Positions 8,681-51,458 of a DNA stretch of 64,000 bases are shown piece after piece (position 1 is the stretch's first letter; every line of letters starts with the position of its first letter). A program made the position numbers and the translations under genes. Below the pieces are notes generated by a model. The model had not been told where the DNA came from. It made no database searches and saw only the letters and a program-made list of their open reading frames with translations. Source of the stretch: Candidatus Caldarchaeum sp. (GTDB taxonomy: Archaea > Thermoproteota > Nitrososphaeria_A > Caldarchaeales > Caldarchaeaceae); assembly GCA_038896555.1 (NCBI GenBank), contig JAWACZ010000004.1, positions 4,792 to 68,791 on the forward strand. Reading direction: 5' to 3'.

Positions 8681-9768
8681 GTTTTTTCAGCTTTGGCTTT
8701 GTTTTCATGAGCCAGTATGCTTATGCGCGCAGCTATGTTTCTCGATATTTCGTGAAGGGCTTTGGAAGCCGGCGATTTAGGGTCCGCCACTACTATCGGA
8801 ATACCTCTGTCATAGTGTGTGGATACCTCTGGCAGAAGCGGTATGCGTCCAAGCATGGGTGAGTCCAGCTCACCAGCCATCTTCTCCGCCACGCTGTCCC
8901 CGAACAGGTTCGACTCAGACCCGCAGTTTGGGCAGACATAATAGCTCATGTTCTCCACAATTCCTATTATTGGTATGCCAAGCCTTCTAAACATTCTCAA
9001 GGCTTTTGCGGCGATGACGGCTGCGGCGGCCTGCGGCGTGGTCACTATGACGACGCCTGTGAGAGGAATGGTTTGCGCAAGAGTCAGGGAGGCGTCACCC
9101 GTCCCTGGCGGGAGATCTACAATAAGATAGTCAAGGTCGCCCCATGCTGCATCTGTGAGCAATTGTTTAACAGCGCTCGCCACCAACGGCCCCCTCCAGA
9201 TTACGGCGGTGTTCTCGTCCACGAACAACCCCAGCGACATGACTTTTATTCCAAGCATCATTCTCGCAGGCTCTAATTTGTTGTTTCCAACCATTCTAGG
9301 AGGTTGTATGATGTTGACGATTTTCGGTATCATCGGGCCGTAGATGTCTGCGTCCACTAGACCTACCCTTGCCCCGCTGAGTGCAAGGCTGCAGGCTAGG
9401 TTTATTGCGACGGTGGTCTTGCCGACCCCCCCCTTCCCGCTTGCTACCGCTATGATATTTTTGACCGATGAGAAATTATTCAGGGAGGGTCCTAAAGGTC
9501 TCGCCGACCAAACACGGGCGGTCGCCTTCATGTCTACTTCTTTAACCCCGGGGATTGACTCTACCGCTCTTCGTGCGTTTTCCTCTATGTCTTTGTTGAA
9601 AGGGCAGGCGGGCGTGGTAAGCTCTAAAGTAAACTGAACCTTTCCTTTTTCGATTTTCAAATCCTTTACCATGCCGAGGCTCACTATGTCGGTTTTCAAA
9701 TCTGGGTCTATGACGCGCCTTAGCGAGTCTATGACGGTTTTTTCATCCACCAAAAATTCTCCACTCAA
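8677..9768 (-). CDS. apbC: Mrp/NBP35-family iron-sulfur cluster carrier ATPase (ApbC-like) with N-terminal DUF59/MIP18-like domain
   Basis: Deviant Walker A (SGKGGVGKTT), CPxC-type motif (CPNCG) and an N-terminal DUF59-like region. Confidence 0.9.
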   Translation of the reverse strand: MSGEFLVDEKTVIDSLRRVIDPDLKTDIVSLGMVKDLKIEKGKVQFTLELTTPACPFNKDIEENARRAVESIPGVKEVDMKATARVWSARPLGPSLNNFSSVKNIIAVASGKGGVGKTTVAINLACSLALSGARVGLVDADIYGPMIPKIVNIIQPPRMVGNNKLEPARMMLGIKVMSLGLFVDENTAVIWRGPLVASAVKQLLTDAAWGDLDYLIVDLPPGTGDASLTLAQTIPLTGVVIVTTPQAAAAVIAAKALRMFRRLGIPIIGIVENMSYYVCPNCGSESNLFGDSVAEKMAGELDSPMLGRIPLLPEVSTHYDRGIPIVVADPKSPASKALHEISRNIAARISILAHENKAKAEKT

Positions 9769-24357: not shown

Positions 24358-24980
24358 CTTTGACTGCTGAGCAGGAAGCGGAGATACTTGAACAGCTAGT
24401 GAAATATAATGTCCACGTCGGTTCTCGGATTAAGGTTAAGCACATGGAGCCGTTCATCTTCAGAATGCGCTACGACGGCGTATATCTTTTCGACGTCAAA
24501 AAAATACTGGAAAGGCTTAACCTTGCCGCACGCATAATATCCTACTATCCGCTGGATAAGGTGGTGGCTGTTTCGACACATGTTTTCGGAATGAAAGCTG
24601 TTCAAAAGTTCGCAGAGTTGACGGGGGCCGTTGCTATTGCAGGCAAGATGGCAGCCGGCATGTTTACCAACAGGACGTTGAAGAACTATATGGAGCCCGA
24701 CCTTGTTATAATCTCCGACCCAAGGTATGACATTCAAGCGCTTGATGAAGCTAGGATTGCGAGGATACCTGTCATAGCCATGTGCAGCACGGACAACATA
24801 TGCGCAAACGTTGATCTCGTTATTCCGATGAACAACAGAAGCAGGACATCCCTACCCTATGCCTTCTGGTACCTTACCAGAAAAGTTTTGGAGGAAAACA
24901 GGCAGCTATCCCCTGATTTTGACGCGTTAGTGAAACCGGAGGACTTTATGACGCTAGCGTCGTCCACTGAGCTTGAGTAG
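24354..24980 (+). CDS. rps2: 30S ribosomal protein S2 (uS2)
   Basis: uS2 pattern (VHVGSR, IISDPR...IPVIA.CSTD). Confidence 0.9.
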   Translation: MTLTAEQEAEILEQLVKYNVHVGSRIKVKHMEPFIFRMRYDGVYLFDVKKILERLNLAARIISYYPLDKVVAVSTHVFGMKAVQKFAELTGAVAIAGKMAAGMFTNRTLKNYMEPDLVIISDPRYDIQALDEARIARIPVIAMCSTDNICANVDLVIPMNNRSRTSLPYAFWYLTRKVLEENRQLSPDFDALVKPEDFMTLASSTELE

Positions 24981-27098
24981 TAAAGGCTGTAGAACGGTCT
25001 CCATGCAGCGGCGTAGGAAAGCGGCATAGAATTCTTCTTCATAACTTTGGTCGTTTAAAAGCTGTAGCGGTGTTGCGCTGTTATGTTTGACGACGTAGGC
25101 AACCTGCTGCCCTGGCGAAAGCTTTACGCCAGCCTGTCCTAGCTTTTTGGCCGCAGTCACATGCTTCAACCTTTTCGTGTAATGTTTCGGATACATGCCC
25201 AAGCTCTTGACGATCGTCAACAGCTCTTGCCCAACAGCACCCGAGTAAACTAGCTTAAGATACTCGTTGAATATTCCTAGACATTCTGATGCTTTGCGCT
25301 GGAGCTCTTCCGGCGACCTGGCCTCGGCCAGCTTTTCAAGAAGCTCCCTCTGCATCTGCTTGGCTAGAGGCGGAGTGTCCCTACGCCTCAGCTCGATTCC
25401 CCTGAATTTTAGACGGCCGTCGGTGTAGACGCCGAAATACCTGTTGTTGACAGGCCTTCCAGGATGCGTGCGTGAGGGAAGGAAGGCTATCCATCTATAG
25501 GTTCCCTCATAGCCTATCGGCAGGCCCAGCCTCTTCTCCAGCTCCTCTCCCAGCTTTCTGTAGTCCTCCTCACAAGCATCCCGCCCCCAGACCCAGAGGC
25601 AGTCTACGATGCCGTGCAACACTTTAAACCCTTTTTCCTCAGCTATTTTGACGCTTTTCAGCAAGGTGTCTCGGGCTAGGGCGCAGACAGCCATATGGGC
25701 CTCACGGCTTCCGAACTTAGCCTTCCTGTAGCCGAGGTAGCCGAAGGATGTGACGAGTATCCATTTGAGGGCGTCAGACCTAGCTTTGTAAATCTTTAAG
25801 CCCGTCTCCACGTAAAGCCTCTTGTACTCCAGCCTTCTCCTCAAAGGCGTTTCAACAGCCGAGGGCACTATTCCACGCCATCTTCTACATACGTGGTATC
25901 CCAGCTCGGGTATGTCGCTGCCTTCGCAGCACTTGCAGTTGACGGTCTCGCCGCTTATGTTGTGTTTGAGCATCAGCGTTGGGTAGAGGCTGTGGAAGTC
26001 AAGCTCGCCGACGTTCCAGTAAACACCCGGCCTGTGGTCGAGAATCCAACCGCCTCTGTCCGCTGTAACAAGCTCGGCGGCGGTCATGCACGTAGGCCTC
26101 CCCGGCTCGGAAGGTATGAGAACGTCGTTCAGGTAGGCTTGACGATACTGTAGAGAGGTCATGCACCTGCCTATCGTGTAGCGGGCCGCGTCTTGGACTG
26201 GCACGCTTACAACTCTCGCAACCTCCAGCACGCCTTCAAGCCCTGTCTCGCCGTAGAGCATGGAGTTGTCGGCGTCTATGTGAAGCCTGCCGTTGAGCTT
26301 GTATCCGCCAAACCTATGGTAAACCCTTCCATAGCTGATGTAGGAGAAGCCTTTCGAGGTTTTAACCCGGTCTTCTCCACGGCCTAGACGCAGCTTGACG
26401 TTGTTGGCTGAAGCTCTCTCCCGCAGGTATCGCATTAGAAAACCGTCTCCGCCGTGGGTGACAACAACGTCCACATCCCATTCGTCCAAGAGCTTCGTCA
26501 GGCTTTGGAGTATCTCATCCTCGCATCCGTCTAACACCGCCTCGTCCCCGTCCACCCTCACTCTCACAAGCCTAAGACCGTCGGAAAACCTGGGCAGAGG
26601 CCCTGAAGCCTCAGCCTCCACATCCAAAAACGCAACCCTGAGGAAGGATGTGTCGTAGAAAAGGTTGTTGACGTCTTCCGCTGGCTCTGGAATGTTGTCG
26701 TGGATTTTGACGTAGGCTGTGGGCGTCAAACCGTGTTCGTAGAGAAATTCTTGGAGCAGAGGTATGTCGGTGTTGTAGGTTTTTACGCCGAGGCAGCTCC
26801 ATCTCTCTGCGATGACGTTTGCAAGCCAGCGTTTCTCGGCGGGCGGTGTAAAAACCTCCAAAGCGTCGACTAAGCCGGCTTCGGGAACCCTCTTCACAAC
26901 AGGCCTGACCTCATACCTGTCGGAAAGCGTCCTCGCAACATCTCGGAGAACGGCCGAGGGCCCTGCAGCATACAGCCTCGCTCTCCAGCCAACAGCCCTT
27001 TTCACCACGCCGCATTTACCCCTCAGCCACAGGAAAACACCGTTACCGTTATCTAAACAAACATCAAGCAGCCAGCCTTCCACACATACTCCAGCCAA
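24954..27098 (-). CDS. family-B DNA polymerase paralog with degenerate catalytic motifs (PolB2/inactivated-PolB-like)
   Basis: Motif A DFHSLYPTLM and motif B K...SFGYLGY are retained. Motif C YGDTDS is replaced by HGIVDC. Exo I is present (FLDVEAE) but Exo II (NxxxFD) reads THGGDGFLMRYL. The protein is 714 aa. Confidence 0.85.
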   Translation of the reverse strand: MAGVCVEGWLLDVCLDNGNGVFLWLRGKCGVVKRAVGWRARLYAAGPSAVLRDVARTLSDRYEVRPVVKRVPEAGLVDALEVFTPPAEKRWLANVIAERWSCLGVKTYNTDIPLLQEFLYEHGLTPTAYVKIHDNIPEPAEDVNNLFYDTSFLRVAFLDVEAEASGPLPRFSDGLRLVRVRVDGDEAVLDGCEDEILQSLTKLLDEWDVDVVVTHGGDGFLMRYLRERASANNVKLRLGRGEDRVKTSKGFSYISYGRVYHRFGGYKLNGRLHIDADNSMLYGETGLEGVLEVARVVSVPVQDAARYTIGRCMTSLQYRQAYLNDVLIPSEPGRPTCMTAAELVTADRGGWILDHRPGVYWNVGELDFHSLYPTLMLKHNISGETVNCKCCEGSDIPELGYHVCRRWRGIVPSAVETPLRRRLEYKRLYVETGLKIYKARSDALKWILVTSFGYLGYRKAKFGSREAHMAVCALARDTLLKSVKIAEEKGFKVLHGIVDCLWVWGRDACEEDYRKLGEELEKRLGLPIGYEGTYRWIAFLPSRTHPGRPVNNRYFGVYTDGRLKFRGIELRRRDTPPLAKQMQRELLEKLAEARSPEELQRKASECLGIFNEYLKLVYSGAVGQELLTIVKSLGMYPKHYTKRLKHVTAAKKLGQAGVKLSPGQQVAYVVKHNSATPLQLLNDQSYEEEFYAAFLRRCMETVLQPLLLKLSGRR

Positions 27099-38091: not shown

Positions 38092-39324
38092 TTGCGAAGC
38101 AGCCAAGAAATACTGAAAAAGCTTGAAAGGGTTGAGCGACAATACCTACTTCAGTACAACAGCTCAAAGAACTGGATCGCTGTATCATACTATTCTGGAT
38201 GGCGTCACGCTCTTGAATGGGTGAGCAAGAGAGGTGACCAAGTTATAGTTGACGAAGTTGTCGGAACAGGACGATGCAGCGGTTGCGCTGCATGCGTAGC
38301 CATTTGCCCCACAAATGTCTTTGACTATGTGGAAGACAAACCGGTCAACACACGGCTAAACCATTGTATAGACTGCGACCTATGCGTCGAATCATGTCCA
38401 GAACTCCATCTGTCGGACATGGATGTGGAAATAAAATCATTGGACAGTTATGCCACATTCGAGGATGATTTCGGAAGATATGGCTCGTTATTGTTAACTA
38501 GGAGCACTGATGAAAAAATTCTTAAAAAATCTCAGGACGGCGGTACAGTTTCATCGCTTCTTGTCCATTGTTTGGAGAGCGGAATCATAGACGCTGCCGT
38601 TGTCTCAACCACATCTCCCGAAAGACCTTTATACCCTGTCGCGAAGCTCGTTTTTAACTCGAAAGAGGTCTTAGAGTGTGCTGGCTCTAGGTACACTTAT
38701 GCACCTAACCTGCTCGCCTTAAGGGAAGCTTACGAGCGTGGTGTTGAGAAGATTGCTGTTGTGGGAGTGCCGTGTCAGATAGATGGTCTGAGGTATTTGC
38801 AGCACTCTACACCCGACCTTGAAGTCGCCAAATGGTATGAAAAACATGTTGTCCTAAGCATAGGGCTTTTTTGCTCAGAAGTTTTCACATACAACGGATT
38901 GATGAAGTATCTCGAGGAAGTTTGCATAAATCCAGAAGATGTTGAAAAAATCAACATCAAAGGAAAGGTAATAATATCCTTGAAGAACGGCGACGAGGTC
39001 GTAAAGCCTTTGAAACAGCTCCATAAATACGAAAGACCCGCGTGTCGTTTCTGCAAGGATTATTCCGCAGAGTTAGCCGACATATCATGCGGAGGACTAG
39101 CAACTAAGGGATGGACGATAACAGTCATCAGAACTAGGACAGGCCTTTCAATCGTAGAAAACGCTGTCAACGCCGGGATTTTAGAATCCAAAAAAATAGA
39201 ATTAAACTCTGAGCCGATGAATCTGTTGAGAAAATTGTGCAAGCAAAAGCGCAAAAGACAACCTCCACCATTGAAAACATTTTTCAACTTGGAAAATTTT
39301 TTATCCCAAGTAATGTTTAAATAA
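38092..39324 (+). CDS. FrhB/FdhB/FpoF-family protein (coenzyme F420 hydrogenase/dehydrogenase beta-subunit-like) with N-terminal 2x[4Fe-4S] ferredoxin domain
   Basis: Two CxxCxxCxxxCP ferredoxin motifs followed by the FrhB-like flavin-binding N- and C-domains. Confidence 0.65.
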   Translation: MRSSQEILKKLERVERQYLLQYNSSKNWIAVSYYSGWRHALEWVSKRGDQVIVDEVVGTGRCSGCAACVAICPTNVFDYVEDKPVNTRLNHCIDCDLCVESCPELHLSDMDVEIKSLDSYATFEDDFGRYGSLLLTRSTDEKILKKSQDGGTVSSLLVHCLESGIIDAAVVSTTSPERPLYPVAKLVFNSKEVLECAGSRYTYAPNLLALREAYERGVEKIAVVGVPCQIDGLRYLQHSTPDLEVAKWYEKHVVLSIGLFCSEVFTYNGLMKYLEEVCINPEDVEKINIKGKVIISLKNGDEVVKPLKQLHKYERPACRFCKDYSAELADISCGGLATKGWTITVIRTRTGLSIVENAVNAGILESKKIELNSEPMNLLRKLCKQKRKRQPPPLKTFFNLENFLSQVMFK

Positions 39325-39344
39325 CCTTAACACATATAGAGTTT

Positions 39345-39545
39345 ATGCCGAGAAAGAAGTTGTCCCAAAAGATTTTGGAAGCGATTGAGCTTTCTGAACA
39401 GCTGAACAGGTTGTTGAACACGTTATCGCCTGAAATACGGGAAATTGTTCTCAGATATATGCAACGAAGGCCTGCTCGAAGGAGGAGAAGAGTAAAAGTT
39501 ATGGGCAGGAGGAGAAGGAGAGCAAAGGAAGTTATGGGCCAGTAA
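39345..39545 (+). CDS. small Arg-rich basic protein (66 aa) with internal tandem repeat
   Basis: N-terminal helix then RRPARRRRRVKVMGRRRRRAKEVMGQ. The DNA carries a GTTATGGGC repeat. Confidence 0.35.
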   Translation: MPRKKLSQKILEAIELSEQLNRLLNTLSPEIREIVLRYMQRRPARRRRRVKVMGRRRRRAKEVMGQ

Positions 39546-39550
39546 ACCTT

Positions 39551-39859
39551 TCACTCTTTTTTAAGCTCTTCGTTGAGCTCTTTCTCTATCTCTTCCAGCG
39601 GTTTAGGCGGTGGTGTAGTCGCCAGAGTGTAGCCTATCCACCCCACTATCCCCAGTATCCCAGCGACAGCCACAAAACCTGTTAGCTTCAACACTATCAG
39701 GTCGAGACCAGCTATTGGCGGTAGGAAAACAGCCCATCCATAAAGTAGTATGCCTACTATGCTTGCGAGAAGAAGCAAACCTCCTACGGTTTGGTCTTTT
39801 GCCATGGGTTTAAACCTCATTATACTGAATATAAACTTAACTTTTGGAATAATCTGCAT
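39551..39859 (-). CDS. small membrane protein (2 TM) with acidic C-terminal tail
   Basis: Two hydrophobic helices followed by EEIEKELNEELKKE. Confidence 0.4.
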   Translation of the reverse strand: MQIIPKVKFIFSIMRFKPMAKDQTVGGLLLLASIVGILLYGWAVFLPPIAGLDLIVLKLTGFVAVAGILGIVGWIGYTLATTPPPKPLEEIEKELNEELKKE

Positions 39860-39867
39860 CTAAAGGG

Positions 39868-40332
39868 TTGGATAGAAAGTCAGCTGTTGTTGTGAGGATA
39901 AAGCATGGAGATAACGAGGTGGAGTTTGAGGGCGGAGTGGATGATGTTTGGACAGCCGTCAACAAATACTTCTCACAAACCCTTGGTCCAATCCAAATAA
40001 TCTCAAGGCTTATGGGCGAGGCTGACCTGACCGAGCTCGCGCATGGACTAGCAGACAAGGTAGTGATAACGAAGGAGGGTATAGACGTTGTCCAACAGGG
40101 CGATGCGAAGAAACGTATAGTCCTCTGTCTTGCCGCTGCGTACGCTGGCAAAAGGCTTGGCATCTTTGTGGAGGAAGCTCTGACTCCGAAGAAAGTGGCT
40201 GGATACATTCGCATGGATGAAAGAGTCGTCAGGGCAAGGTTGAGCGAGCTGTGGAAAGAGGGGCTTGTAGACAGGGATGCTGAAGGACGTTATATATTTA
40301 AACCATCCATGGCTATGAAGATGCTAAAGTGA
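39868..40332 (+). CDS. paralog 1 of a beta-hairpin + winged-helix small protein family
   Basis: N-terminal VVVRIKHGDNEVEFEGGVDDV and C-terminal wHTH-like LSELWKEGLVDRDAEGRYIF. Shares architecture with the two genes that follow. Confidence 0.5.
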   Translation: MDRKSAVVVRIKHGDNEVEFEGGVDDVWTAVNKYFSQTLGPIQIISRLMGEADLTELAHGLADKVVITKEGIDVVQQGDAKKRIVLCLAAAYAGKRLGIFVEEALTPKKVAGYIRMDERVVRARLSELWKEGLVDRDAEGRYIFKPSMAMKMLK

Positions 40333-40338
40333 TGGGCT

Positions 40339-40821
40339 GTGACTTCGCTTAAAGTTACTATTGCCTACGGCGAGCTCAAGGCAGAGTTTGAAGGGGCGCC
40401 GGAGGAAGTCTATCTTAACGTTGTTAGGTTTCTCGAGAAGTCGATACCTGCATACTCGCTTGCGTCTAGGCTTCAGAAGTCGGTGGGTGTGGAGGAGCTG
40501 CTTGAAAAACTGCGGGACAAGCTAGTCTACGTACAAGGTGAGGGAGTAGTCGTCAAAACGCCCCTGTCCAATCTGCCAACGTCAAACGCCATTCTCCTCT
40601 ACGCCGGCGCACGCTACCTCAGCCATCTCCTCGGGCTTGTTGAGAAGGCAGAATGCACGTCTTCAGAGTTTGCGTACGTAATGGCGAAGCCCGAAAAGAC
40701 AATATCGGGCAGGCTGACCGAGCTGGTTCAAAAAAACTTTTTGAAAAGGGTTGGGAGAGGCGGTTACGTAATCACTGTCTTGGGCCTAAGCTATCTAGCG
40801 GAGTCGTCGGGCTCTGTTTGA
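40339..40821 (+). CDS. paralog 2 of the beta-hairpin + winged-helix small protein family
   Basis: N-terminal LKVTIAYGELKAEFEGAPEEV and C-terminal LTELVQKNFLKRVGRGGYVIT. Confidence 0.5.
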   Translation: MTSLKVTIAYGELKAEFEGAPEEVYLNVVRFLEKSIPAYSLASRLQKSVGVEELLEKLRDKLVYVQGEGVVVKTPLSNLPTSNAILLYAGARYLSHLLGLVEKAECTSSEFAYVMAKPEKTISGRLTELVQKNFLKRVGRGGYVITVLGLSYLAESSGSV

Positions 40822-41204
40822 GTTTTCTCCAAGACCGTCTTGGAGGCCTCGGTGTACACGTATCTTCTTGTCTCACCCACCCTTTCGAGAACTCCAGACC
40901 TTACAAGGTCCAGCAGGACGTGGGCGACGGCTGTCGTATCGTAAAAGAAGCCCCGCCTTTCCAGCTCTGCCACCACCTCGGAGAGCGTTCGCCCTGTTTT
41001 CATCCATCCTGCCTTCATCAGTTCCTCCACAGCTTTCCTGCAGGTTATCGTTTTTCTCTGCTGGGCTGGCTTTGGCTGCTGCGCTTGGTCGGATGCCTTC
41101 AACGCATTCAGCACGTTCTTGACGGCTTCCTCTAATCTTTCCACAGGTGCTTCTACTTCTACGGTTGTGTTACCCATGGTTATCTTTATTTTTGCTTGAC
41201 TCAA
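40791..41204 (-). CDS. paralog 3 of the beta-hairpin + winged-helix small protein family (divergent from nurA-herA)
   Basis: N-terminal KIKITMGNTTVEVEAPVERLEE and C-terminal LLDLVRSGVLERVGETRRYVYT. Its 3' end overlaps paralog 2 convergently. Confidence 0.5.
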   Translation of the reverse strand: MSQAKIKITMGNTTVEVEAPVERLEEAVKNVLNALKASDQAQQPKPAQQRKTITCRKAVEELMKAGWMKTGRTLSEVVAELERRGFFYDTTAVAHVLLDLVRSGVLERVGETRRYVYTEASKTVLEKTQTEPDDSAR

Positions 41205-41224
41205 CTTGTTGCACCATTTTGGTC

Positions 41225-41246
41225 ATGTTGCGCAACATTTATATTT
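41225..41246. promoter_or_regulatory. 14-bp perfect palindrome ATGTTGCGCAACAT abutting a TATA-like box (TTTATATTT) in the paralog-3/nurA divergent intergenic region
   Basis: Palindrome at 41225-41238 and TATA at 41238-41246, about 40 bp upstream of the nurA ATG at 41285. An additional TGTTGC half-site lies at 41210-41215. Confidence 0.35.
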
Positions 41247-41284
41247 AACCAAATGAAGACGTTTTGTAGGAATTGGTGTTCAAG

Positions 41285-42307
41285 ATGACCAACCAACTCC
41301 TTCACCAATTACCCCCATATGATGAGCTGACAAACCTGCTAAAAACGTTTTCCTCAGTCACTCTAGACACGGTCACAGTCCTACGCAACATCGAGGCATA
41401 TCATCCCACGCCTGAAAACGACGAACCAAATGACATGCTGTTAGACAACATCTTAGCGGATGGCCTTGAGACAATCATTTTAACCCCCGCCGAAAAGAGC
41501 CTGCCCGTCGTCGCCTGCGACATGTCGACGGTCAAGATAGCCGACACCTCTCGTGGAAGCGTATGGGCTGTGAGGGGAAGCATTGTGATAAGGGAAAAAG
41601 GATTGGTCAAAGCAGCTGTCGTCGGCCCCTTCGCCTACACAGTATCAAAAACCACGGTGGAGAAAATAATCGATGTTTTGTTCATGTATTTGGGACTCGA
41701 GAGGAAGCAGAGGTTCTTAGAGATGTCGGCCGTTCCGAAAGTTATTAGCAATCTCTTTGAGAAAGTGTTGCAGGTTTACGCCACTACATGGCTTAAGGGA
41801 GGAGTTCTCCTGCTCGACGGCGCACTCACCTCAGGGCCTTTGGACAGCCCACCGGCAGCTGTTGAGAAAATAGTTGAGTCCGCAAAAACTTCCGGGATCG
41901 GTGTTGCGGCTTTCTCGAAGTCTACAACGCTCATGTTTCTCGGACGGAGGATAACCTATTTCGCAGGCAAATGCAGACCACCATATGTCATGAGGCTTCC
42001 TTTGTCCAGCTCCCGACCATGGGGCGTAAACGGCTCCGTTTACGTCTCGCATCTGTCATCCTCTCTTTTCCCCTTCCGTGTTGACGTGGCGTCCAAAACA
42101 AGCGATGAAGATGTCTTCCGGCATATCCTCTCCAGCGAAAACATAATCCACGGCTATCCCGAATCACTTATCATAGCCCACCAGCTTGCGAAACTCAGGT
42201 GGATAGACGTGCTAGGTATCCGCGCAAGCCTAGAGTCTCTTGTTAAGCTAAAATTTTCTTCAAGCGTTGACGTCAGGTCAACAATCTTTGCCCCGTTAGA
42301 GGGATGA
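41285..42307 (+). CDS. nurA: NurA-family 5'-3' nuclease
   Basis: NurA-like conserved acidic positions (VVACDMS, VLLLDGAL) and C-terminal YPESLIIAHQLA motif. Immediately upstream of herA. Start set to the first ATG. Confidence 0.55.
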   Translation: MTNQLLHQLPPYDELTNLLKTFSSVTLDTVTVLRNIEAYHPTPENDEPNDMLLDNILADGLETIILTPAEKSLPVVACDMSTVKIADTSRGSVWAVRGSIVIREKGLVKAAVVGPFAYTVSKTTVEKIIDVLFMYLGLERKQRFLEMSAVPKVISNLFEKVLQVYATTWLKGGVLLLDGALTSGPLDSPPAAVEKIVESAKTSGIGVAAFSKSTTLMFLGRRITYFAGKCRPPYVMRLPLSSSRPWGVNGSVYVSHLSSSLFPFRVDVASKTSDEDVFRHILSSENIIHGYPESLIIAHQLAKLRWIDVLGIRASLESLVKLKFSSSVDVRSTIFAPLEG

Positions 42308-42313
42308 TGCGCT

Positions 42314-43807
42314 ATGAGAATCCTTCAGAAGAAAGGCGACAGTTTGGAAATACTCTGCGTTCCAACCGAGCTGGATTTCGAGATAGGAGATTATCTTAAG
42401 GTCAGCCAAGACGACCGCTTATTGCTTCTGCAGGTTATCGACGTCTCGTATCCGGATCTTCCAGGAACATTGGAGGAGCTTCTCCGCGACCTTGTCATGC
42501 AAGAGGTTGATGGAGCAAACGTTCTCGACCTCTACAACACAGCCTCGATAGCTATGCTGATGAAGGAGGTGAGGCTCGTCACCGCAAAAATAAGAGCGCT
42601 ACTCAGTAAAGAATCGTTGAAGCCAAACTCTCCATGGCTTCCAAGCCGCTTTTCAGCTACATTCGAGAAAGCCTCGACAGATTTTCTCCAAAGCATTACT
42701 TCAAACGAAGACCAAGGGCTTAAAGTTGAGATAGGCATGGTAAGCGGCCAACCATACTCCATCTCCTTAACCAGCCTAGACGGCTGTCTAACCATAATCA
42801 CTGGGAAGAAAGAGAGCGGAAAATCACACCTCGCTAAGATTCTTGTTGAAGGCATCGCCGCCAACGGCGGAACCGTACTCGTGCTTGATGTGAATGGTGA
42901 GTACTTGAGCTTAGATAGAACAGTTGACGGCAACCCCAGCCATCTTACTTCATCTATCCAAGTTTTGCAGCCTGGCGTGAACTTTAAGGCATCTTTGCAG
43001 GCTATGGGGTTGAAGACCTTTCTAGACGTTTTAGAGCATGTTTACGGAACGCCTTCTACGAGCTTGAGAGAGCTTGCAAGATTATGGCGAAGAGTGGAAA
43101 AAAGAGGGGTAACCATTACTGTAGATACGTTGATGGATGCCGTTGAACGAGAGCAGATTAACGAGGCTGTTAGAGACGCTCTCTTATCCAGGCTTCAAAG
43201 CATCAAGTCGTCGGGATTCATAGACGAGGATTGTTCGACGGACTTGGAAGAGGTTTTATCGACTAAGCCATGCGGAAACGTTACCGTGGTCAACCTTTCA
43301 AACCTGTTACCAAGCGTTAGAAGGCTTGTCGTGGAATACCTGCTCAGCCATCTATCAACGCTCCTGAGTCAAAACGGGCTGGAGCCCTTATTTCTGCTGG
43401 CTGAAGAAGCCCATCTCTATCTCCGTGAAACCTACTGGGAGGACATAGTCACCAGAATGAGACACATCGGCCTCTTCCCAATTTTCGTCACCAACCAGCC
43501 AGACTCAATACCTGAGCTCGTTTACAGACAGTCAGACAACATTTTCCTCTTCAACTTTACCAACGATGGAGACCTTGAGAAAATAGCGAGGGTTTCAAAA
43601 ATAGACGCCGAAACGGTTAAAACTCTTGTCAAAAAAATGCCTGCATGCCATTGTCTCTTGATGGGGAAGATGGTATCAGACATACCTTTGATGGTTAAGG
43701 TCAGGGCCAGCACCCTTCAAACGATGGGAGTGACAAAACGATTTTTTAGAAACCGGCTGTCGAAATACCATAGGCTTGAAACCGAGCCAGCTTACCAAAG
43801 AATATGA
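42314..43807 (+). CDS. herA: HerA-family hexameric ATPase/helicase (HAS-barrel + RecA-like domain)
   Basis: N-terminal HAS-barrel-like segment, Walker A GKKESGKS, HerA-type VLDVNGEY motif, Walker B LFLLAEEAH. Confidence 0.8.
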   Translation: MRILQKKGDSLEILCVPTELDFEIGDYLKVSQDDRLLLLQVIDVSYPDLPGTLEELLRDLVMQEVDGANVLDLYNTASIAMLMKEVRLVTAKIRALLSKESLKPNSPWLPSRFSATFEKASTDFLQSITSNEDQGLKVEIGMVSGQPYSISLTSLDGCLTIITGKKESGKSHLAKILVEGIAANGGTVLVLDVNGEYLSLDRTVDGNPSHLTSSIQVLQPGVNFKASLQAMGLKTFLDVLEHVYGTPSTSLRELARLWRRVEKRGVTITVDTLMDAVEREQINEAVRDALLSRLQSIKSSGFIDEDCSTDLEEVLSTKPCGNVTVVNLSNLLPSVRRLVVEYLLSHLSTLLSQNGLEPLFLLAEEAHLYLRETYWEDIVTRMRHIGLFPIFVTNQPDSIPELVYRQSDNIFLFNFTNDGDLEKIARVSKIDAETVKTLVKKMPACHCLLMGKMVSDIPLMVKVRASTLQTMGVTKRFFRNRLSKYHRLETEPAYQRI

Positions 43808-44405
43808 AAAATTTAAACAGTCTATTTCAAACGCTCTGCAAAGCTTTAGAGAAACCCGTAAAAATCCTCAAACAGTTTTGGAGGAGCTGGTATTCTGTTT
43901 ATGCACACCCCAGACTAAAGCACGAAATGCTTTAAAAGCCGTAGAAGAAATAAAGAACCAAGGTCTTCTGACAAAACCAGACCTGCCAAGAATATCCGAA
44001 ATCTTACGAAGGTCTGGAGTGCGTTTCCATAGAAAAAAGGCGGAAAATATAATGTCTGTTTTTAAAATTTTTCCGGCAATAATCGATAAAATAAACGAAA
44101 ACCATAATCAAAAGCTGGACATGTTAAGGGATTTTCTCGTAGAAAACGTCAAAGGACTTGGGATGAAAGAAGCAAGCCACTTCCTGAGAAACATAGGCTA
44201 CGAAAACGTGGCAATTATCGACAGACATATTTTGAAATTCCTACAGACCCAGCGAATTGTCAAAAAGAAGGTCAGAAACATAACCAAAAAACAGTATCTT
44301 CAGCTGGAGAAAAAATTTATCGAACAGGCGGGAAAATATGGATTAAGCCCAGCTGAGCTGGACCTTCTGGTGTGGGCTGTCTACACCGGCGAGGTCTTAA
44401 AATGA
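43776..44405 (+). CDS. ogg: archaeal 8-oxoguanine DNA glycosylase / N-glycosylase-DNA lyase (Ogg2 family, HhH)
   Basis: GLGMKEASHFLRNIG...IIDRHILKFL helix-hairpin-helix/catalytic Lys-Asp region typical of archaeal Ogg. Confidence 0.7.
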   Translation: MKPSQLTKEYEKFKQSISNALQSFRETRKNPQTVLEELVFCLCTPQTKARNALKAVEEIKNQGLLTKPDLPRISEILRRSGVRFHRKKAENIMSVFKIFPAIIDKINENHNQKLDMLRDFLVENVKGLGMKEASHFLRNIGYENVAIIDRHILKFLQTQRIVKKKVRNITKKQYLQLEKKFIEQAGKYGLSPAELDLLVWAVYTGEVLK

Positions 44406-45337
44406 AACCCAGTTTGAGCGAGGAACTAAAGCTCTTCATAAGCGAGTTTATACCCGAGCATTTTGATAAGCTGGTTGAATCATATTCGAAGCCGCTTCCT
44501 GAGACGTTTAGAGTCAACACTTTGAAGACAACTGTGAGCGAGTGCTTGAGCTTGCTGGCTGAGGACGGAGTGGAAGCTAAACCTGTTCCGTGGACTAAGC
44601 TGGGATTCTACGCCGAGCCACCCGGACGTCTATCAACCTCTCTCTGGCACATGCTCGGACTGGTGTACATCCAAGGCCCCGTGTCAATGCTTGTAGCAGA
44701 CTTGCTTGACGTCAAGCCTGGAGAACGCGTCCTTGACCTCTGCGCAGCCCCCGGAAGCAAATCCACCCAAATAGGACAAAACCTAGCTGGAGAAGGCGTT
44801 CTGGTCGCTAACGATGTTTCGAGAACAAGGATTAAAGCGCTCACCTCAAACCTTCAACGCTGTGGTGTGCTAAATTGCGTCGTCACGTTGGCGGACGGCA
44901 GATACATAGGCTTTAAGATGCAGGAGTATTTTGATAGGGTGCTTGTTGACGCGCCATGCAGCTCGCTGGGAGTGGGTGCAAAAGATTGGAGTGTTTTGAA
45001 GAACTGGAGCAGTAAGCTTTCCGAAAGGATGGGCAAGCTTCAGAAAGCCCTACTGTTTTCAGGGTTTAGAGCCCTTAATCCCGGGGGAGAACTGGTTTAC
45101 GCCACCTGCACTTATCATCCCTTGGAGAACGAAGCTGTGGTTTCATCGCTCTTAGACAAGTTTGAAAACGCGTCCTTGCTAGACATAAAGATTGATGGCA
45201 TAAGGTTTAGCCATGGCGTGGAAAGTTGGAGGGGGCTGAGCTTCAGAGACGAGGTCAAGAAAGCCGTCAGAATATACACATTCCAAAGCGGGGCGGAAGG
45301 TTTTTTCATAGCTAAAGTAATGAAAAAAGCGGACTAA
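44402..45337 (+). CDS. NOL1/NOP2/Sun-family RNA cytosine-C5 methyltransferase
   Basis: SAM motif DLCAAPGSKS, catalytic DAPCS and TC-T motifs; start at ATG 44402. Confidence 0.8.
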   Translation: MKPSLSEELKLFISEFIPEHFDKLVESYSKPLPETFRVNTLKTTVSECLSLLAEDGVEAKPVPWTKLGFYAEPPGRLSTSLWHMLGLVYIQGPVSMLVADLLDVKPGERVLDLCAAPGSKSTQIGQNLAGEGVLVANDVSRTRIKALTSNLQRCGVLNCVVTLADGRYIGFKMQEYFDRVLVDAPCSSLGVGAKDWSVLKNWSSKLSERMGKLQKALLFSGFRALNPGGELVYATCTYHPLENEAVVSSLLDKFENASLLDIKIDGIRFSHGVESWRGLSFRDEVKKAVRIYTFQSGAEGFFIAKVMKKAD

Positions 45338-48974: not shown

Positions 48975-51458
48975 ATGTTTCGGAAGATGTCTAAGTGTTT
49001 CCTCTTAGGCGTTGGGTATGATGGGCAGGAGAGGAAGGCTTACCTCAAGCTGCTTGACCTCGAAACCAAGAGAGTCACAATCTACATGGATACTACAGGC
49101 CATAAACCATACTGCTTGAGCGACAGACCTGCGGCCGAGCTGGCTAACGACCCAAGGCTTAAAGAGGCTGGGGCGGTAGAGTTCGTCGAGGTTGAGAAAT
49201 ACGACAGCATCAACGACCGAAACATAACCATGACTTTGATAAAGGCTACAGACCCGCTCGCAGTAGGTGGAACAAAAAAGTCGATACGAGAGATTGTGAA
49301 AAGCTGGGAAGCCGACATACCCTACCATCTAAACTACATCTATGATAACAAGCTCGTTCCAAGCCTAGTTTACACGTTTGAAAACGGTAAATTCACACCC
49401 CTTCTGGGTGAAGAGGAGAAAGTCCAGCAAATCCTTGAGAAGTTTTTCAAGGATCTTTCCGACAACGAGAAGAGGCAGATAAAAAAATGGCTTGAAATTC
49501 TCGAGTCGGAGCATCCTCCCATCGATTTCACCGCTTTAGACATTGAGATTCTAGGCGAGTCGCCCACCCGTGTGCCATCCCCCTCCAACCCGGAGGACAG
49601 AGTTGTAGCAGTATCCTTCTCTGGAACAAAGAACATGAACAAAGTGCTAGTGTTAAAGAGAGATAATATTGACATGAACTTTGAGGGCGGCGAGTTCGCT
49701 TTGGAAGTATTTGACGATGAGGAAGCGCTGCTGTTAAGATGTTTCGAGATAATGGAAGACTATCCGATTGTTGTGTCATTCAACGGTGACGAATTCGACC
49801 TACCCTACCTCAAAAACAGGGCCGAAAAGCTCAACATCCCAAGGAACAAAATACCGATAAACATTGGAAGGGATGGTGCAACCCTTAGAAAGGGAGTGCA
49901 TCTCGACCTTTACCGTTTTTTCAACAACAAGTCGGTGCAGGTCTACGCCTTCGACAACCGCTACCGGGAATACACGCTTGACGGCGTGGCTAAAGCTTTG
50001 CTCGGGGTTGGGAAGGTTCATGTTGAGAAACCTTTGGGCGAGCTCAGCCTTCAAGAGCTGGCGAGCTACAGCTACAGAGACTCAAGGCTTTTGAGAGACA
50101 TGGTTGAGGTTGGTGACCGCCTTCTTCTGAGGCTGATGGCAGTTATCTCACGCATAAGCAGAATGTCTTTGGAAGACGTTTGTAGACACGGCGTAAGCGG
50201 ATGGATCAAAAACCTTCTGTACTGGGAGCTCCGGGGGCTGAACTGGTTGATACCCTTGAAAGAAGACCTAATATCAGCCAAGGGAGAAACCAGTACAAAA
50301 GCCATCATAGAAGGGAAAAAATACAGGGGTGGGCTGGTCGTCGAACCAGTTCCCGGCGTTCATTTCAACGTAACAGTGTTGGATTTCGCCTCACTGTATC
50401 CAAGCATTCTCAAGGAATACAACCTGAGCTTCGAAACAATCAACTGCCCCCATCAAGAGTGCAGAAGCAACAAAATCCCTGAGACAACCCACTGGGTTTG
50501 CTCGAATAGACAAGGGCTCCAAAGCAGCATAATAGGCGCGATAAGAGACATTCGGGTTAAATGGTATAAGCCGATGGTGTCCGACAAATCGTTAACAGCT
50601 GTTCAGAGAAGCTGGTACGAGGTTGTTCAAAGGGCTTTAAAGGTATTCCTTAACGCAAGCTACGGCGTCCTAGGTTTTGAGGAGTTTCCTCTATACTGCC
50701 CGCCTCTTGCCGAAAGCACTACGGCCATAGGTCGGTATGTTTTTCAGTCGGCTATCGAGAAAGCCAGGTCGCTTAACATACTCGTCGTGTACGGTGACAC
50801 GGACTCTATCTTCCTTAAGACAACAGACCCTGCTCAGGTAAATGAGCTGATCAGATGGGCTGGGGAAAAGTTCAGGCTGGAGCTTGAGTTTGACAAAGTC
50901 TATAGATATGTGGTTTTCAGCCGGAGGAAAAAGAACTACTTAGGCGTTACCGACAGAGGAATCGTAGATGTTAAGGGGCTGACGGGCAAGAAGAGAAACA
51001 TCCCCGTATTCATCAAGGAAGCCTTCGACGACATGCTGAGGCAGCTGGCGGAGGTAAAGACGGCCGAAGACCTCGAGAGGGTCAAGAAAAACATACGGGA
51101 GGTAATAGCGGCTTGGTATTCGAAGCTCAAGAACCGAACCTTCGAGATCGACCAGCTTGCGTTCAGGGTCATGATGTCCAAGACGATTGAGAGATATGAG
51201 AAGACAACTCCGCAGCATGTTAAGGCGGCTAAGAAGCTTCAGGCTATGGGGGTTAAAGTCGGGCCAGGCGACATCATAAGCTTCGTGAAGACGAAGGATA
51301 AGGAGGGGGTGACGCCGCTTCAGCTCGCCAGGAAGGAAGCCGTTGACGTGGACAAGTACATAGAATACATGCGTTCGACGTTTGAGCAGGTTCTCGACCC
51401 GCTGGAGATAGATTTCGACAGCGTCGTCGGCCTCACGAGCCTCGAAAGCTTTATGTAG
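48975..51458 (+). CDS. polB: family-B DNA polymerase (intact exonuclease and polymerase motifs)
   Basis: Exo I LDIEI, Exo II FNGDEFDLPYL, motif A DFASLYPSIL, motif B K..LNASYGVLG, motif C VVYGDTDSIFL; 827 aa. Confidence 0.95.
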   Translation: MFRKMSKCFLLGVGYDGQERKAYLKLLDLETKRVTIYMDTTGHKPYCLSDRPAAELANDPRLKEAGAVEFVEVEKYDSINDRNITMTLIKATDPLAVGGTKKSIREIVKSWEADIPYHLNYIYDNKLVPSLVYTFENGKFTPLLGEEEKVQQILEKFFKDLSDNEKRQIKKWLEILESEHPPIDFTALDIEILGESPTRVPSPSNPEDRVVAVSFSGTKNMNKVLVLKRDNIDMNFEGGEFALEVFDDEEALLLRCFEIMEDYPIVVSFNGDEFDLPYLKNRAEKLNIPRNKIPINIGRDGATLRKGVHLDLYRFFNNKSVQVYAFDNRYREYTLDGVAKALLGVGKVHVEKPLGELSLQELASYSYRDSRLLRDMVEVGDRLLLRLMAVISRISRMSLEDVCRHGVSGWIKNLLYWELRGLNWLIPLKEDLISAKGETSTKAIIEGKKYRGGLVVEPVPGVHFNVTVLDFASLYPSILKEYNLSFETINCPHQECRSNKIPETTHWVCSNRQGLQSSIIGAIRDIRVKWYKPMVSDKSLTAVQRSWYEVVQRALKVFLNASYGVLGFEEFPLYCPPLAESTTAIGRYVFQSAIEKARSLNILVVYGDTDSIFLKTTDPAQVNELIRWAGEKFRLELEFDKVYRYVVFSRRKKNYLGVTDRGIVDVKGLTGKKRNIPVFIKEAFDDMLRQLAEVKTAEDLERVKKNIREVIAAWYSKLKNRTFEIDQLAFRVMMSKTIERYEKTTPQHVKAAKKLQAMGVKVGPGDIISFVKTKDKEGVTPLQLARKEAVDVDKYIEYMRSTFEQVLDPLEIDFDSVVGLTSLESFM

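What the first reader, a model, noticed from the sequence alone, without database searches (positions are those of the whole stretch)
39868..41284. Triplicated beta-hairpin + winged-helix paralogs, one divergently paired with nurA-herA through a palindromic operator
Three adjacent small proteins (154, 160, 137 aa) share the same two-part architecture. Each has an N-terminal beta-hairpin (hydrophobic-x-I-x-x-G-x-x-x-V/A-E-F/V-E-G/A, then acidic residues) and a C-terminal winged-helix (L.EL...G.L.R.G.G.Y). Two are tandem on the plus strand. The third is convergent and overlaps paralog 2 by 31 bp. That third copy is transcribed divergently from nurA-herA across a 68-80 bp spacer. The spacer contains a 14-bp perfect palindrome, ATGTTGCGCAACAT, abutting the TATA box, which is a textbook position for an archaeal repressor/activator site. 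This looks like a dedicated, possibly auto-regulated, transcription-factor family controlling the end-resection machinery. I know of no such regulator.
Basis: partly seen in the sequence, partly recalled or inferred. Interest (0 to 1): 0.65.

Follow-up and report, generated by a model that had tools for sequence, protein, structure and literature searches.

The report
Conserved regulator beside archaeal nurA-herA genes
A small, unnamed DNA-binding protein always sits back-to-back with the DNA-end-processing genes nurA-herA in two uncultured archaeal groups, next to a promoter motif conserved in both groups, so it is very probably their dedicated transcriptional switch, although no binding has been tested.

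Summary
The three ORFs, the 31-bp convergent overlap, the 68-bp spacer and the palindrome ATGTTGCGCAACAT (41225-41238) touching a TATA box are all present. P1 and P2 are clear paralogs (BLASTP 3e-14). P3 is related only at profile level, but in both modules (hhalign N-terminal E 2.4e-6, wHTH E 5.8e-5; shuffled controls much weaker).

The window comes from a Ca. Caldarchaeum genome. P3 homologs are divergent from nurA-herA in every locus that has upstream DNA: 47/47 species genomes across Caldarchaeales and Bathyarchaeia. TATAAA+TGTTGCGCA is the most conserved stretch of that intergenic region in both classes.

The 14-bp palindrome itself is lineage-specific and not significant on its own (6 in the window, 3.9 expected). 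A second inverted copy of the motif covers the nurA start.

Best reading: P3 is an autoregulated local wHTH regulator, probably a repressor, of nurA-herA(-ogg-rsmB). P1/P2 are an ancient paired relative whose role is unknown.

No binding or expression has been tested. This NurA-HerA is divergent and has no mre11-rad50 nearby, so "end resection" is an assumption.

The family is uncharacterised. It is a new member of a familiar kind of system. Csa3a binding of nurA-herA promoters in Sulfolobus is a partial precedent.

The parts
40791..41204 (-). P3, 137 aa. It has an N-terminal beta-hairpin plus helix, a disordered linker and a BlaI-like winged-helix domain. It is the candidate regulator.
   Evidence: - ORF.
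- Pfam Penicillinase_R scores 25.0 bits against a gathering cut-off of 22.6, for residues 60-118.
- AlphaFold2 model: pLDDT 70.9, strands 3-10 and 13-20, helix 21-40, winged helix 55-119.
- Best Foldseek PDB matches are BlaI, MecI and Fur winged-helix domains.
- The family has 846 clusters, all hypothetical and without Pfam annotation.
- It is always divergent from nurA-herA.
41219..41238 (-). Operator O1. On the P3 strand it reads ATGTTGCGCAACATGACCAA. The conserved core is TGTTGCGCA.
   Evidence: - The core 9-mer occurs once in 64 kb.
- It is the most conserved intergenic stretch in both Caldarchaeales and Bathyarchaeia.
- In the ~8-kb loci it occurs in the P3-nurA spacer, with only occasional extra copies elsewhere.
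41206..41218 (-). Further TGnnCAA-like repeats (ATGACCAA overlapping the 3' end of O1, then TGGTGCAA) between O1 and the P3 start codon.
   Evidence: TGNNCAA occurs 5 times within 100 nt here, against 0.22 expected. This is the densest cluster in the window. Equivalent repeats with a spacing of roughly 10 bp are seen in the other lineages.
41238..41248 (.). Near-symmetric TATA box TTTATATTTAA, probably shared by the divergent P3 and nurA promoters.
   Evidence: Read directly from the sequence. The TATAAA hexamer on the P3 strand (41238-41243) ends 33 nt before the P3 start codon. On its other side, 29 nt separate it from the nurA start codon. The nurA distance stays at 29-35 nt across the loci.
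41273..41292 (+). Probable second operator O2, TTGGTGTTCAAGATGACCAA. It is an inverted imperfect copy of O1 that covers the nurA start codons.
   Evidence: - repeat finder pair I1: 22 nt, 77% complementary.
- It matches O1 at 15 of 20 positions at a fixed 29 nt from the TATA in genus Caldarchaeum. None of 200 random segments per locus reached that.
- The match is weaker in Bathyarchaeia.
- The site is also coding sequence, so part of its conservation may be due to the protein.
41273..42307 (+). nurA, a NurA-domain nuclease of 344 aa. It may instead start at the ATG at 41285.
   Evidence: Pfam NurA at 1.5e-5, above the cut-off. No sequence-level PDB match. Conserved next to P3.
42314..43807 (+). 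herA, a HerA/FtsK-type ATPase of 497 aa. Walker A is GKKESGKS and Walker B is LLAEEAH.
   Evidence: Pfam DUF87 at 6.5e-16. The best solved relative is Sulfolobus HerA 4D2I at 5e-9. The NCBIfam HerA equivalogs score far below their cut-offs.
43776..45337 (+). An ogg gene (8-oxoguanine glycosylase) and an RsmB/F-like methyltransferase gene. They overlap herA and each other, so they are probably co-transcribed. This holds in Caldarchaeales only.
   Evidence: Pfam Ogg-HhH at 8e-53. The same gene order occurs in all Caldarchaeum, Pelearchaeum and Terraquivivens loci but is absent in Bathyarchaeia and in the Nitrososphaeria MAG L025.
39868..40332 (+). P1, 154 aa, a paralog of P2.
   Evidence: BLASTP to P2 gives E 3e-14. 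PADLOC and Pfam give only sub-threshold winged-helix hits.
40339..40821 (+). P2, 160 aa. It has a beta-hairpin plus helix, a helical and hairpin insert, and a winged helix.
   Evidence: - AlphaFold2 pLDDT 84.9, pTM 0.70.
- Foldseek against the PDB finds only generic winged-helix factors.
- The family has 364 clusters at 50% identity among 1.84 billion proteins.
- P1 and P2 occur as a tandem pair in most Caldarchaeales and about half of the Bathyarchaeia loci.
39829..39844 (+). P1-P2 promoter: a TATA box plus AACTTAACTTT. This is a different conserved motif from O1.
   Evidence: It is conserved upstream of P1 in Caldarchaeum and Pelearchaeum loci. No TGTTGCGCA occurs there.

Best explanation
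P3 is a sequence-specific winged-helix transcription factor dedicated to the divergent nurA-herA operon. In Caldarchaeales that operon continues into ogg and an rsmB-like gene.

Proposed mechanism:
- P3 binds operator O1 (core TGTTGCGCA plus TGnnCAA repeats). O1 abuts the single, near-symmetric TATA box.
- O1 lies between the TATA and the P3 start, so binding would block polymerase recruitment at the P3 promoter and cause autorepression.
- The same site lies over the BRE position of the nurA promoter, so binding would also block TFB.
- In genus Caldarchaeum, P3 probably also binds an inverted copy, O2, over the near-leaderless nurA start.
- The N-terminal beta-hairpin-helix module probably mediates dimer or oligomer formation along the roughly 10-bp-spaced repeats. 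It could also sense a signal that releases repression.
- P1 and P2 share both modules. They are an ancient tandem pair, probably a heterodimeric DNA-binding protein, with their own promoter. Their link to nurA-herA is only by neighbourhood.

Shown here: the gene order, the domain content, and the conservation and uniqueness of the motif.
Inferred: that P3 binds the motif, the direction of regulation, oligomerisation, and the existence of a signal.
For: 1. Synteny. P3 homologs lie divergent from NurA-HerA in all 47 genome loci that have upstream DNA, from Caldarchaeales to Bathyarchaeia (38-93% identity). The same holds in C. subterraneum and in metagenome contigs.
2. Operator. TATAAA+TGTTGCGCA has the highest information content in the intergenic region in both classes. 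In the window it occurs once. In the ~8-kb loci it occurs in the P3-nurA spacer, with only occasional extra copies elsewhere. Half-site-like TGNNCAA repeats are 20-fold enriched there.
3. Geometry. The nurA start stays 29-35 nt from the TATA. The P3 start is 27-33 nt away on the other side in Caldarchaeales. The motif therefore overlaps core promoter elements of both genes.
4. Second site. An inverted copy sits over the nurA start.
5. DNA-binding domain. P3 has a bona fide BlaI-type winged helix. Its recognition helix TAVAHVLLD is nearly invariant.
6. Alternatives excluded. There is no known RNA family, no viral copies and no defence-system match for P3 or NurA.
Against: - No binding, footprint, transcription start site or expression data exist.
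- The loci were retrieved with the peptide pattern TA[VI]AHVLLD. Invariance of the recognition helix is therefore partly built in, and no helix/operator co-variation test was possible.
- Part of the conserved block is the TATA/BRE itself, and O2 is also coding sequence.
- The site position directly upstream of the nurA TATA is also compatible with activation.
- P3 is about as conserved as HerA (roughly 40% identity between classes), which would also fit a structural partner.
- Only 64 kb of this genome was seen, so the size of the regulon is unknown.
Confidence: 0.65

Rival explanations
1. P3 binds the same motif but acts as an activator of nurA-herA. It would sit immediately upstream of the TATA and recruit or replace TFB/TBP contacts, as Ptr2-type and TFB-RF1-type archaeal activators do, while still repressing its own gene.
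For: Relative to nurA, O1 lies upstream of the TATA, which is the usual activator side. Csa3a activates nurA-herA promoters in Sulfolobus (PMC5587795).
Against: O1 touches the TATA with no gap and so covers the BRE rather than lying upstream of it. The inverted copy O2 over the nurA start is a classic repressor position.
Confidence: 0.15
2. P3, and perhaps P1/P2, are not transcription factors. They would be DNA-binding accessory subunits or loaders of this divergent NurA-HerA machine. The conserved promoter motif would then be a core-promoter feature or the site of another factor.
For: The three-gene linkage is strict and P3 is about as conserved as HerA. The N-terminal module has no known function. 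There is weak similarity to the winged-helix-like domain of reverse gyrase/topoisomerase IA (E 0.03).
Against: P3 is always divergent and never co-oriented in the operon. A unique, deeply conserved motif with inverted-repeat character sits in its own promoter. The BlaI-type winged helix is typical of repressors.
Confidence: 0.1
3. The cluster is a mobile or anti-virus HerA-NurA-type defence island that carries its own winged-helix regulators.
For: HerA scores about as well against anti-phage HerA and MADS models as against repair HerA. P1/P2 give weak AbiEi and Csa3-like winged-helix hits.
Against: - The chromosomal context is stable, among housekeeping genes (ogg, rsmB, TBP, ribosomal proteins, FrhB), across genera.
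- There is no compositional anomaly.
- No viral contigs encode P3 relatives.
- P3 and NurA give no PADLOC hit, and no toxin or effector partner is present.
- The best solved relative of HerA is the Sulfolobus repair HerA.
Confidence: 0.04

Closest known systems
Csa3a (CARF + winged-helix regulator) of Saccharolobus islandicus
   Same: It is a winged-helix factor that binds specific motifs in nurA-herA promoters and changes their expression (PMC5587795). The C-terminal ~90 aa of P1 and P2 weakly match Csa3-type profiles (E 5e-5).
   Different: Csa3a is encoded in a CRISPR-cas locus, has a CARF sensor domain and acts on many promoters. P3 has no CARF domain, is encoded next to its presumed target and belongs to a different, unannotated family. 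No cas genes are present here.
BlaI/MecI/CopY repressors (Pfam PF03965)
   Same: The P3 winged helix passes the Pfam gathering score, and BlaI is the top structural match. Both are autoregulated repressors of a divergent operon that bind inverted repeats overlapping the promoter (my own knowledge).
   Different: Those proteins dimerise through a C-terminal helical domain and are inactivated by a cognate sensor-protease or by metal. P3 lacks that domain and carries an N-terminal beta-hairpin-helix module instead. No such partner gene is nearby.
Archaeal promoter-occluding local regulators such as Phr, MDR1, LrpA and TrmB/TrmBL1 (my own knowledge)
   Same: The operators overlap or flank the TATA/BRE or the transcription start, autoregulation is common, and the mechanism is to block TBP/TFB or polymerase recruitment.
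   Different: The protein families and targets differ. None of them controls HerA-NurA.
Orc1-2 / TFB3 DNA-damage response of Sulfolobales (PMC12490963, PMC6101594) and bacterial LexA
   Same: These regulators link DNA damage to expression of repair genes. LexA is an autoregulated winged-helix repressor that binds palindromic boxes.
   Different: P3 has no Orc/Cdc6, TFB or S24 peptidase domain. Only one site was seen in 64 kb, so P3 looks local rather than global.

Membership tests
BlaI/MecI/CopY (Pfam Penicillinase_R, PF03965) - for P3 | N-terminal winged-helix DNA-binding domain matching the family model | tested here: met
   25.0 bits against a gathering score of 22.6, P3 residues 60-118 on profile positions 6-63. 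BlaI 1p6r is the top Foldseek hit (E 7e-3). NCBIfam CopY/TcrY scores only 20.7 against a cut-off of 122.
BlaI/MecI/CopY (Pfam Penicillinase_R, PF03965) - for P3 | C-terminal helical dimerisation domain (profile positions ~64-115) | tested here: not met
   The match stops at profile position 63 of 115. After the wing, P3 has only an 18-residue tail predicted to be disordered.
BlaI/MecI/CopY (Pfam Penicillinase_R, PF03965) - for P3 | Adjacent sensor-protease (BlaR1/MecR1) or copper-handling genes | tested here: not met
   The neighbours are nurA, herA, P1 and P2 in all loci.
Csa3-type CARF + winged-helix regulators - for P1/P2 | N-terminal CARF (Rossmann-like) sensor domain | tested here: not met
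   The PADLOC CARF3 hits cover only profile positions ~109-205. The P2 model has a beta-hairpin, helices and a small hairpin before the winged helix, with no Rossmann fold.
AbiEi antitoxin (type IV toxin-antitoxin) - for P1/P2 | AbiEi winged helix together with an adjacent AbiEii nucleotidyltransferase toxin | tested here: not met
   Only sub-threshold AbiEi hits were found (PF13338 on two homologs). No toxin gene is present in any locus.
Canonical archaeal end-resection cluster (herA-mre11-rad50-nurA) | A NurA-domain nuclease paired with a HerA ATPase | tested here: met
   Pfam NurA is above its cut-off and DUF87/HerA scores 6.5e-16. Sulfolobus HerA 4D2I matches at 5e-9. Walker A and B motifs were read in the sequence.
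Canonical archaeal end-resection cluster (herA-mre11-rad50-nurA) | Linked mre11 and rad50, and an equivalog-level match to repair HerA | tested here: not met
   No Mre11 or Rad50 is present in the 64-kb window or in the related loci. HerA_Thermprot scores 42.6 bits against a cut-off of 800. Whether mre11-rad50 lie elsewhere in the genome could not be checked.
LexA-type SOS repressor | S24 autoprotease domain and a multi-gene regulon of operator boxes | tested here: not met
   No peptidase domain was found. The motif occurs once in 64 kb. A genome-wide scan was not possible.
Autoregulated local archaeal transcription factor with a promoter-overlapping operator | A DNA-binding domain, conserved adjacency to the target, and a conserved site in the shared promoter | tested here: met
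Autoregulated local archaeal transcription factor with a promoter-overlapping operator | Demonstrated specific binding and an effect on transcription | not testable with these tools
   This needs EMSA or footprinting and in vitro transcription.

The most novel reading that the evidence does not exclude
P3 is the sensor-regulator of an inducible DNA-damage or oxidative-damage response in Bathyarchaeia and Caldarchaeales. The invariant Thr-Cys at the N-cap of the first winged-helix helix (T54-C55) would act as a one-cysteine redox switch, by analogy with OhrR. Alternatively, the N-terminal module would sense a damage signal. Either event would release repression of nurA-herA, and of ogg in Caldarchaeales. 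This would be an SOS-like circuit built from a protein family with no characterised member. The tandem P1/P2 pair would act as co-regulators through the shared N-terminal module.
Probability: 0.12. Interest if true: 0.75.

Novelty: new member of a known kind. Interest (0 to 1): 0.5.

Why it matters
Regulation of DNA repair in archaea is poorly understood. The known cases are the Orc1-2/TFB3 response and Csa3a, both in Sulfolobales. HerA-NurA is usually treated as constitutive and essential.

A dedicated regulator conserved across two classes, with a conserved operator, implies that expression of this nuclease-helicase pair is controlled in Bathyarchaeia and Caldarchaeales, two abundant uncultured lineages. 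It also provides a defined protein-DNA pair that can be tested in vitro without culturing the organisms.

The finding also gives a first functional hypothesis for two unannotated families. One has about 850 clusters at 90% identity and the other about 360 clusters at 50% identity.

Tried and rejected
- **BLASTP of P3 against P1 and P2.** It found nothing. Profiles were needed.
- **The palindrome as evidence on its own.** Rejected, because the window holds 6 perfect 14-bp palindromes against 3.9 expected.
- **The same motif upstream of P1/P2 or elsewhere in the window.** It is absent. The only other TTGCGCAA, at 9073, lies inside a coding ORF.
- **Regulon search with TATAAATGTTGCGCA in metagenomes.** Of 120 hits, 108 were unrelated contigs and the 12 related ones were again P3/nurA loci. 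This gave no regulon information.
- **Viral contigs.** No P3 relatives were found.
- **Rfam on 39300-41600.** Nothing was found.
- **Membership in Csa3, AbiEi or LexA.** Rejected on missing domains or partner genes.
- **Helix/operator co-variation.** Not possible, because the loci were selected through the recognition-helix peptide and the distant hits were not listed.
- **Literature searches.** They found no dedicated nurA-herA regulator other than Csa3a.
Full report
**What is in the window**

| Feature | Coordinates | Notes |
|---|---|---|
| P1 | 39868-40332 (+) | 154 aa; in tandem with P2, 6 nt apart |
| P2 | 40339-40821 (+) | 160 aa |
| P3 | 40791-41204 (-) | 137 aa; converges on P2 with a 31-bp overlap |
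| nurA | 41273-42307 (+) | divergent from P3 |
| herA | 42314-43807 (+) | follows nurA |
| ogg | 43776-44405 (+) | 8-oxoguanine glycosylase gene; overlaps herA |
| rsmB/F-like | 44372-45337 (+) | overlaps ogg |

- The P3-nurA spacer is 68 bp.
- ATGTTGCGCAACAT lies at 41225-41238. Its last base is the first base of TTTATATTTAA (41238-48).
- nurA passes the Pfam NurA threshold, and herA matches DUF87/HerA at 6.5e-16.
- The best solved relative of HerA is Sulfolobus HerA 4D2I at 5e-9.
- Both proteins are nevertheless divergent. HerA_Thermprot scores 42.6 bits against an equivalog cut-off of 800. NurA has no sequence-level PDB hit.
- There is no mre11 or rad50 in the 64 kb. The large ORFs are LeuRS, two family-B polymerases and others.
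- Base composition is flat across the region.

**Are the three proteins related?**

- P1 and P2 are clear paralogs (26% identity, E 3e-14).
- P3 gives no BLASTP hit to either.
- With profiles built from 54 P3-family and 69 P1/P2-family sequences taken from related loci, hhalign aligns them colinearly (P3 2-117 with P2 2-145, E 2.1e-4).
- Taken domain by domain, both modules are significant.
  - The N-terminal module gives probability 89%, E 2.4e-6, score 27.5. Fifteen column-shuffled controls reached at most 11.8.
  - The recognition helix plus wing gives E 5.8e-5, score 27.1, against a control maximum of 15.7.
  - Cross-domain comparisons score nothing.
- AlphaFold2 predicts the same N-terminal element in both models.
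  - P3: strands 3-10 and 13-20, helix 21-40 (pLDDT 70.9).
  - P2: strands 4-10 and 13-19, helix 21-35 (pLDDT 84.9, pTM 0.70).
  - Each is followed by a winged helix. P2 has an extra helical/hairpin insert of about 40 residues.
- The 'shared two-part architecture' is therefore real. 'Triplicated' is too strong: P1/P2 are an old pair and P3 is a remote relative.

**What the domains are**

- The P3 winged helix passes the Pfam gathering score for Penicillinase_R, the BlaI/MecI/CopY family (25.0 against 22.6, residues 60-118 on profile 6-63 of 115).
- BlaI, MecI, Fur and RosR winged helices are its best structural matches.
- P3 lacks that family's C-terminal dimerisation domain.
- P1/P2 give only sub-threshold generic winged-helix hits. 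These include the C-terminal part of Csa3-type 'CARF3' profiles and AbiEi. The P2 model has no CARF/Rossmann domain, and no solved structure matches the whole architecture.
- The N-terminal module has no hit in Pfam, NCBIfam, PADLOC or the PDB.
- All homologs are annotated as hypothetical.
  - The P3 family has 846 clusters at E<=0.01.
  - The P1/P2 family has 364 clusters at 50% identity among 1.84 billion proteins. It includes rare fusions to a Ser/Thr kinase and to DUF488.

**Comparative genomics**

- The closest relatives (93-94% identity) are from a Ca. Caldarchaeum MAG.
- A scan of one genome per species found 50 loci encoding P3 relatives. They come from Caldarchaeum, Pelearchaeum and Terraquivivens (Caldarchaeales), one other Nitrososphaeria MAG, and Bathyarchaeia (38-44% identity).
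- I ran tblastn with the window's proteins against these loci. In every locus that has upstream DNA (47 of 47; three are cut by contig ends), the P3 gene is divergent from nurA followed by herA.
- The same arrangement holds in the complete Ca. C. subterraneum genome and in metagenome contigs.
- ogg and rsmB follow herA in the Caldarchaeum, Pelearchaeum and Terraquivivens loci, but not in Bathyarchaeia or in the Nitrososphaeria MAG L025.
- A P1/P2-like tandem pair lies convergent to P3 in nearly all Caldarchaeales loci. It lies within 0.7-3.5 kb in about half of the Bathyarchaeia loci and is not seen within 4 kb in the rest.
- The invariant unit is therefore P3 - promoter - nurA - herA.

**The promoter region**

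- I aligned the intergenic regions on the TATA box. TATAAA followed directly by TGTTGCGCA is the most conserved stretch in both classes, with information content near the maximum. The flanks are not conserved between classes.
- The 9-mer occurs once in the 64-kb window. In the ~8-kb loci it occurs in the P3-nurA spacer, with occasional extra copies elsewhere.
- The 14-bp palindrome is one lineage's version of this element. Other lineages show:
  - TTGCGCAAGATGAGCAA
  - TTGCGCAATTTGGGTAATTTGCTCA
  - GTTGCGCATGCGCAAC
  - the 32-bp palindrome ATGTTGCGCATCTTGGCCAAGATGCGCAACAT
- The common theme is TTGCGCA followed by TGnnCAA-like units at a spacing of roughly 10 bp.
- In the window, TGNNCAA occurs 5 times within 100 nt against 0.22 expected, the densest cluster in 64 kb.
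- A 14-bp perfect palindrome alone means little, since the window has 6 against 3.9 expected.
- An inverted imperfect copy of the operator lies at 41273-41292, TTGGTGTTCAAGATGACCAA. It matches O1 at 15 of 20 positions and covers the nurA start codons.
  - In genus Caldarchaeum it sits at a fixed 29 nt from the TATA. Random segments of the same loci never match as well.
  - In Bathyarchaeia the nurA start region (ATGTTGnTGATTGAACAA) resembles O1 more weakly.
  - This site is also coding sequence, which weakens the inference.

**Geometry and mechanism (inferred)**

- The nurA start stays 29-35 nt from the TATA in all lineages. In Caldarchaeales the P3 start is 27-33 nt away on the other side.
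- Archaeal transcription usually starts about 25 nt downstream of the TATA (my own knowledge). Both mRNAs would therefore be leaderless or nearly so, and would arise from one near-symmetric TATA.
- O1 then spans roughly -23 to -10 of the P3 promoter, and the extra repeats run over the start site. The same O1 covers the BRE position of the nurA promoter. O2 covers the nurA start site.
- This is the layout of a promoter-occluding, autoregulated repressor. Activation of nurA from the upstream side cannot be excluded.
- The repeats and the shared N-terminal module suggest cooperative oligomeric binding.
- The invariant T54-C55 at the start of the first winged-helix helix invites a redox-switch hypothesis, given ogg in the operon. 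That is speculation.

**Alternatives**

- **Accessory-subunit role for P3.** This is not excluded. It is disfavoured by the constant divergent orientation and by the conserved site in P3's own promoter.
- **Defence or mobile-island reading.** This is disfavoured by several results:
  - the synteny with housekeeping genes is stable;
  - composition is flat;
  - no viral contigs carry P3 relatives;
  - no defence-specific partners are present.
- **Known RNA family.** None matches.

**Relation to what is known**

- Literature searches found no dedicated regulator encoded next to nurA-herA.
- The nearest precedent is Csa3a of S. islandicus, a CARF plus winged-helix factor that binds nurA-herA and other repair promoters (PMC5587795).
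- The Orc1-2 and TFB3 damage responses are unrelated in protein family.
- P3 works like a BlaI-type or other local winged-helix repressor. It is not a full member of that family, because it has no C-terminal dimerisation domain and no sensor partner.

**Limits**

- Nothing here shows binding or regulation.
- The genome loci were retrieved through the recognition-helix peptide. Its invariance is therefore partly circular, and no helix/operator co-variation test was possible.
- Whether this divergent NurA-HerA is the cell's end-resection machine, and where mre11-rad50 lie, could not be checked.

**Verdict**

This is a real, well-conserved and previously undescribed regulator-operator-operon unit. 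It is a new member of a familiar kind of system, and of moderate interest.

Noticed in passing
window 39806-39867 (motif at 39829-39844); related loci L001, L005-L018: The P1-P2 operon has its own conserved promoter, a TATA box followed by AACTTAACTTT. It appears to be shared with the divergent small membrane-protein gene. The listed 102-aa ORF at 39551-39859 is probably over-extended, with its true start at the conserved MAKDQ codons near 39805. This may be a separate operator for P1/P2 autoregulation.
   Followed up: partly
window 40791-40821: The 31-bp convergent overlap of P2 and P3 encodes conserved residues on both strands (P2 ...LAESS, P3 ...DDSAR). The P3 tail is predicted to be disordered, so its conservation is probably a by-product of the P2 C-terminal helix. 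The overlap is 26-31 bp in Caldarchaeum and absent in Terraquivivens.
   Followed up: partly
L025 5483-5929 (-): One Nitrososphaeria MAG has a fourth paralog, P3-like but with a different recognition helix (NTKPVDKALRMLIRKG). It lies directly upstream of P1-P2 on the same strand. It would be useful for a helix/operator co-variation test.
   Followed up: no
window 41219-41238 versus 41273-41292: Operator O1 resembles the 5' coding end of nurA in inverted orientation (for example ATGACCAA on both sides, and ATGAGCAA on both sides in C. subterraneum). This could reflect an ancient inverted duplication of the nurA start region as well as a second binding site.
   Followed up: partly
window 39345-39545 (+): A 66-aa ORF has an extremely arginine-rich C-terminus (RRPARRRRRVKVMGRRRRRAKE). 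It is conserved in position in Ca. C. subterraneum (69 aa, L001 7642-7851). No family match was found.
   Followed up: no
P3 residues ~54-94; PDB 4ddt, 7fse: The P3-family profile weakly resembles (E 0.03) the winged-helix-like segment of reverse gyrase/topoisomerase IA (T..S.VEE..K.G.GRPSTYA.IV..L..RGYVY). This is probably generic winged-helix similarity.
   Followed up: no
P0176 (535 aa), P0270 (326 aa): Rare relatives of P1/P2 are fused to a Ser/Thr protein kinase domain or to DUF488. This hints that the module can be coupled to signalling domains.
   Followed up: partly
window 24954-27098 (-) and 48975-51458 (+): Two family-B DNA polymerase genes lie in the same 64 kb as the nurA-herA-ogg cluster. 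Neither has the TGTTGCGCA motif upstream.
   Followed up: partly
Bathyarchaeia loci, e.g. L028 4434-5009, L033 4378-4926, L053 4405-4956: In many Bathyarchaeia loci a conserved ~185-aa protein (motif SHC[LI]LN..[ST]RWW) follows P3 on the same strand. It may be a further member of the neighbourhood.
   Followed up: no
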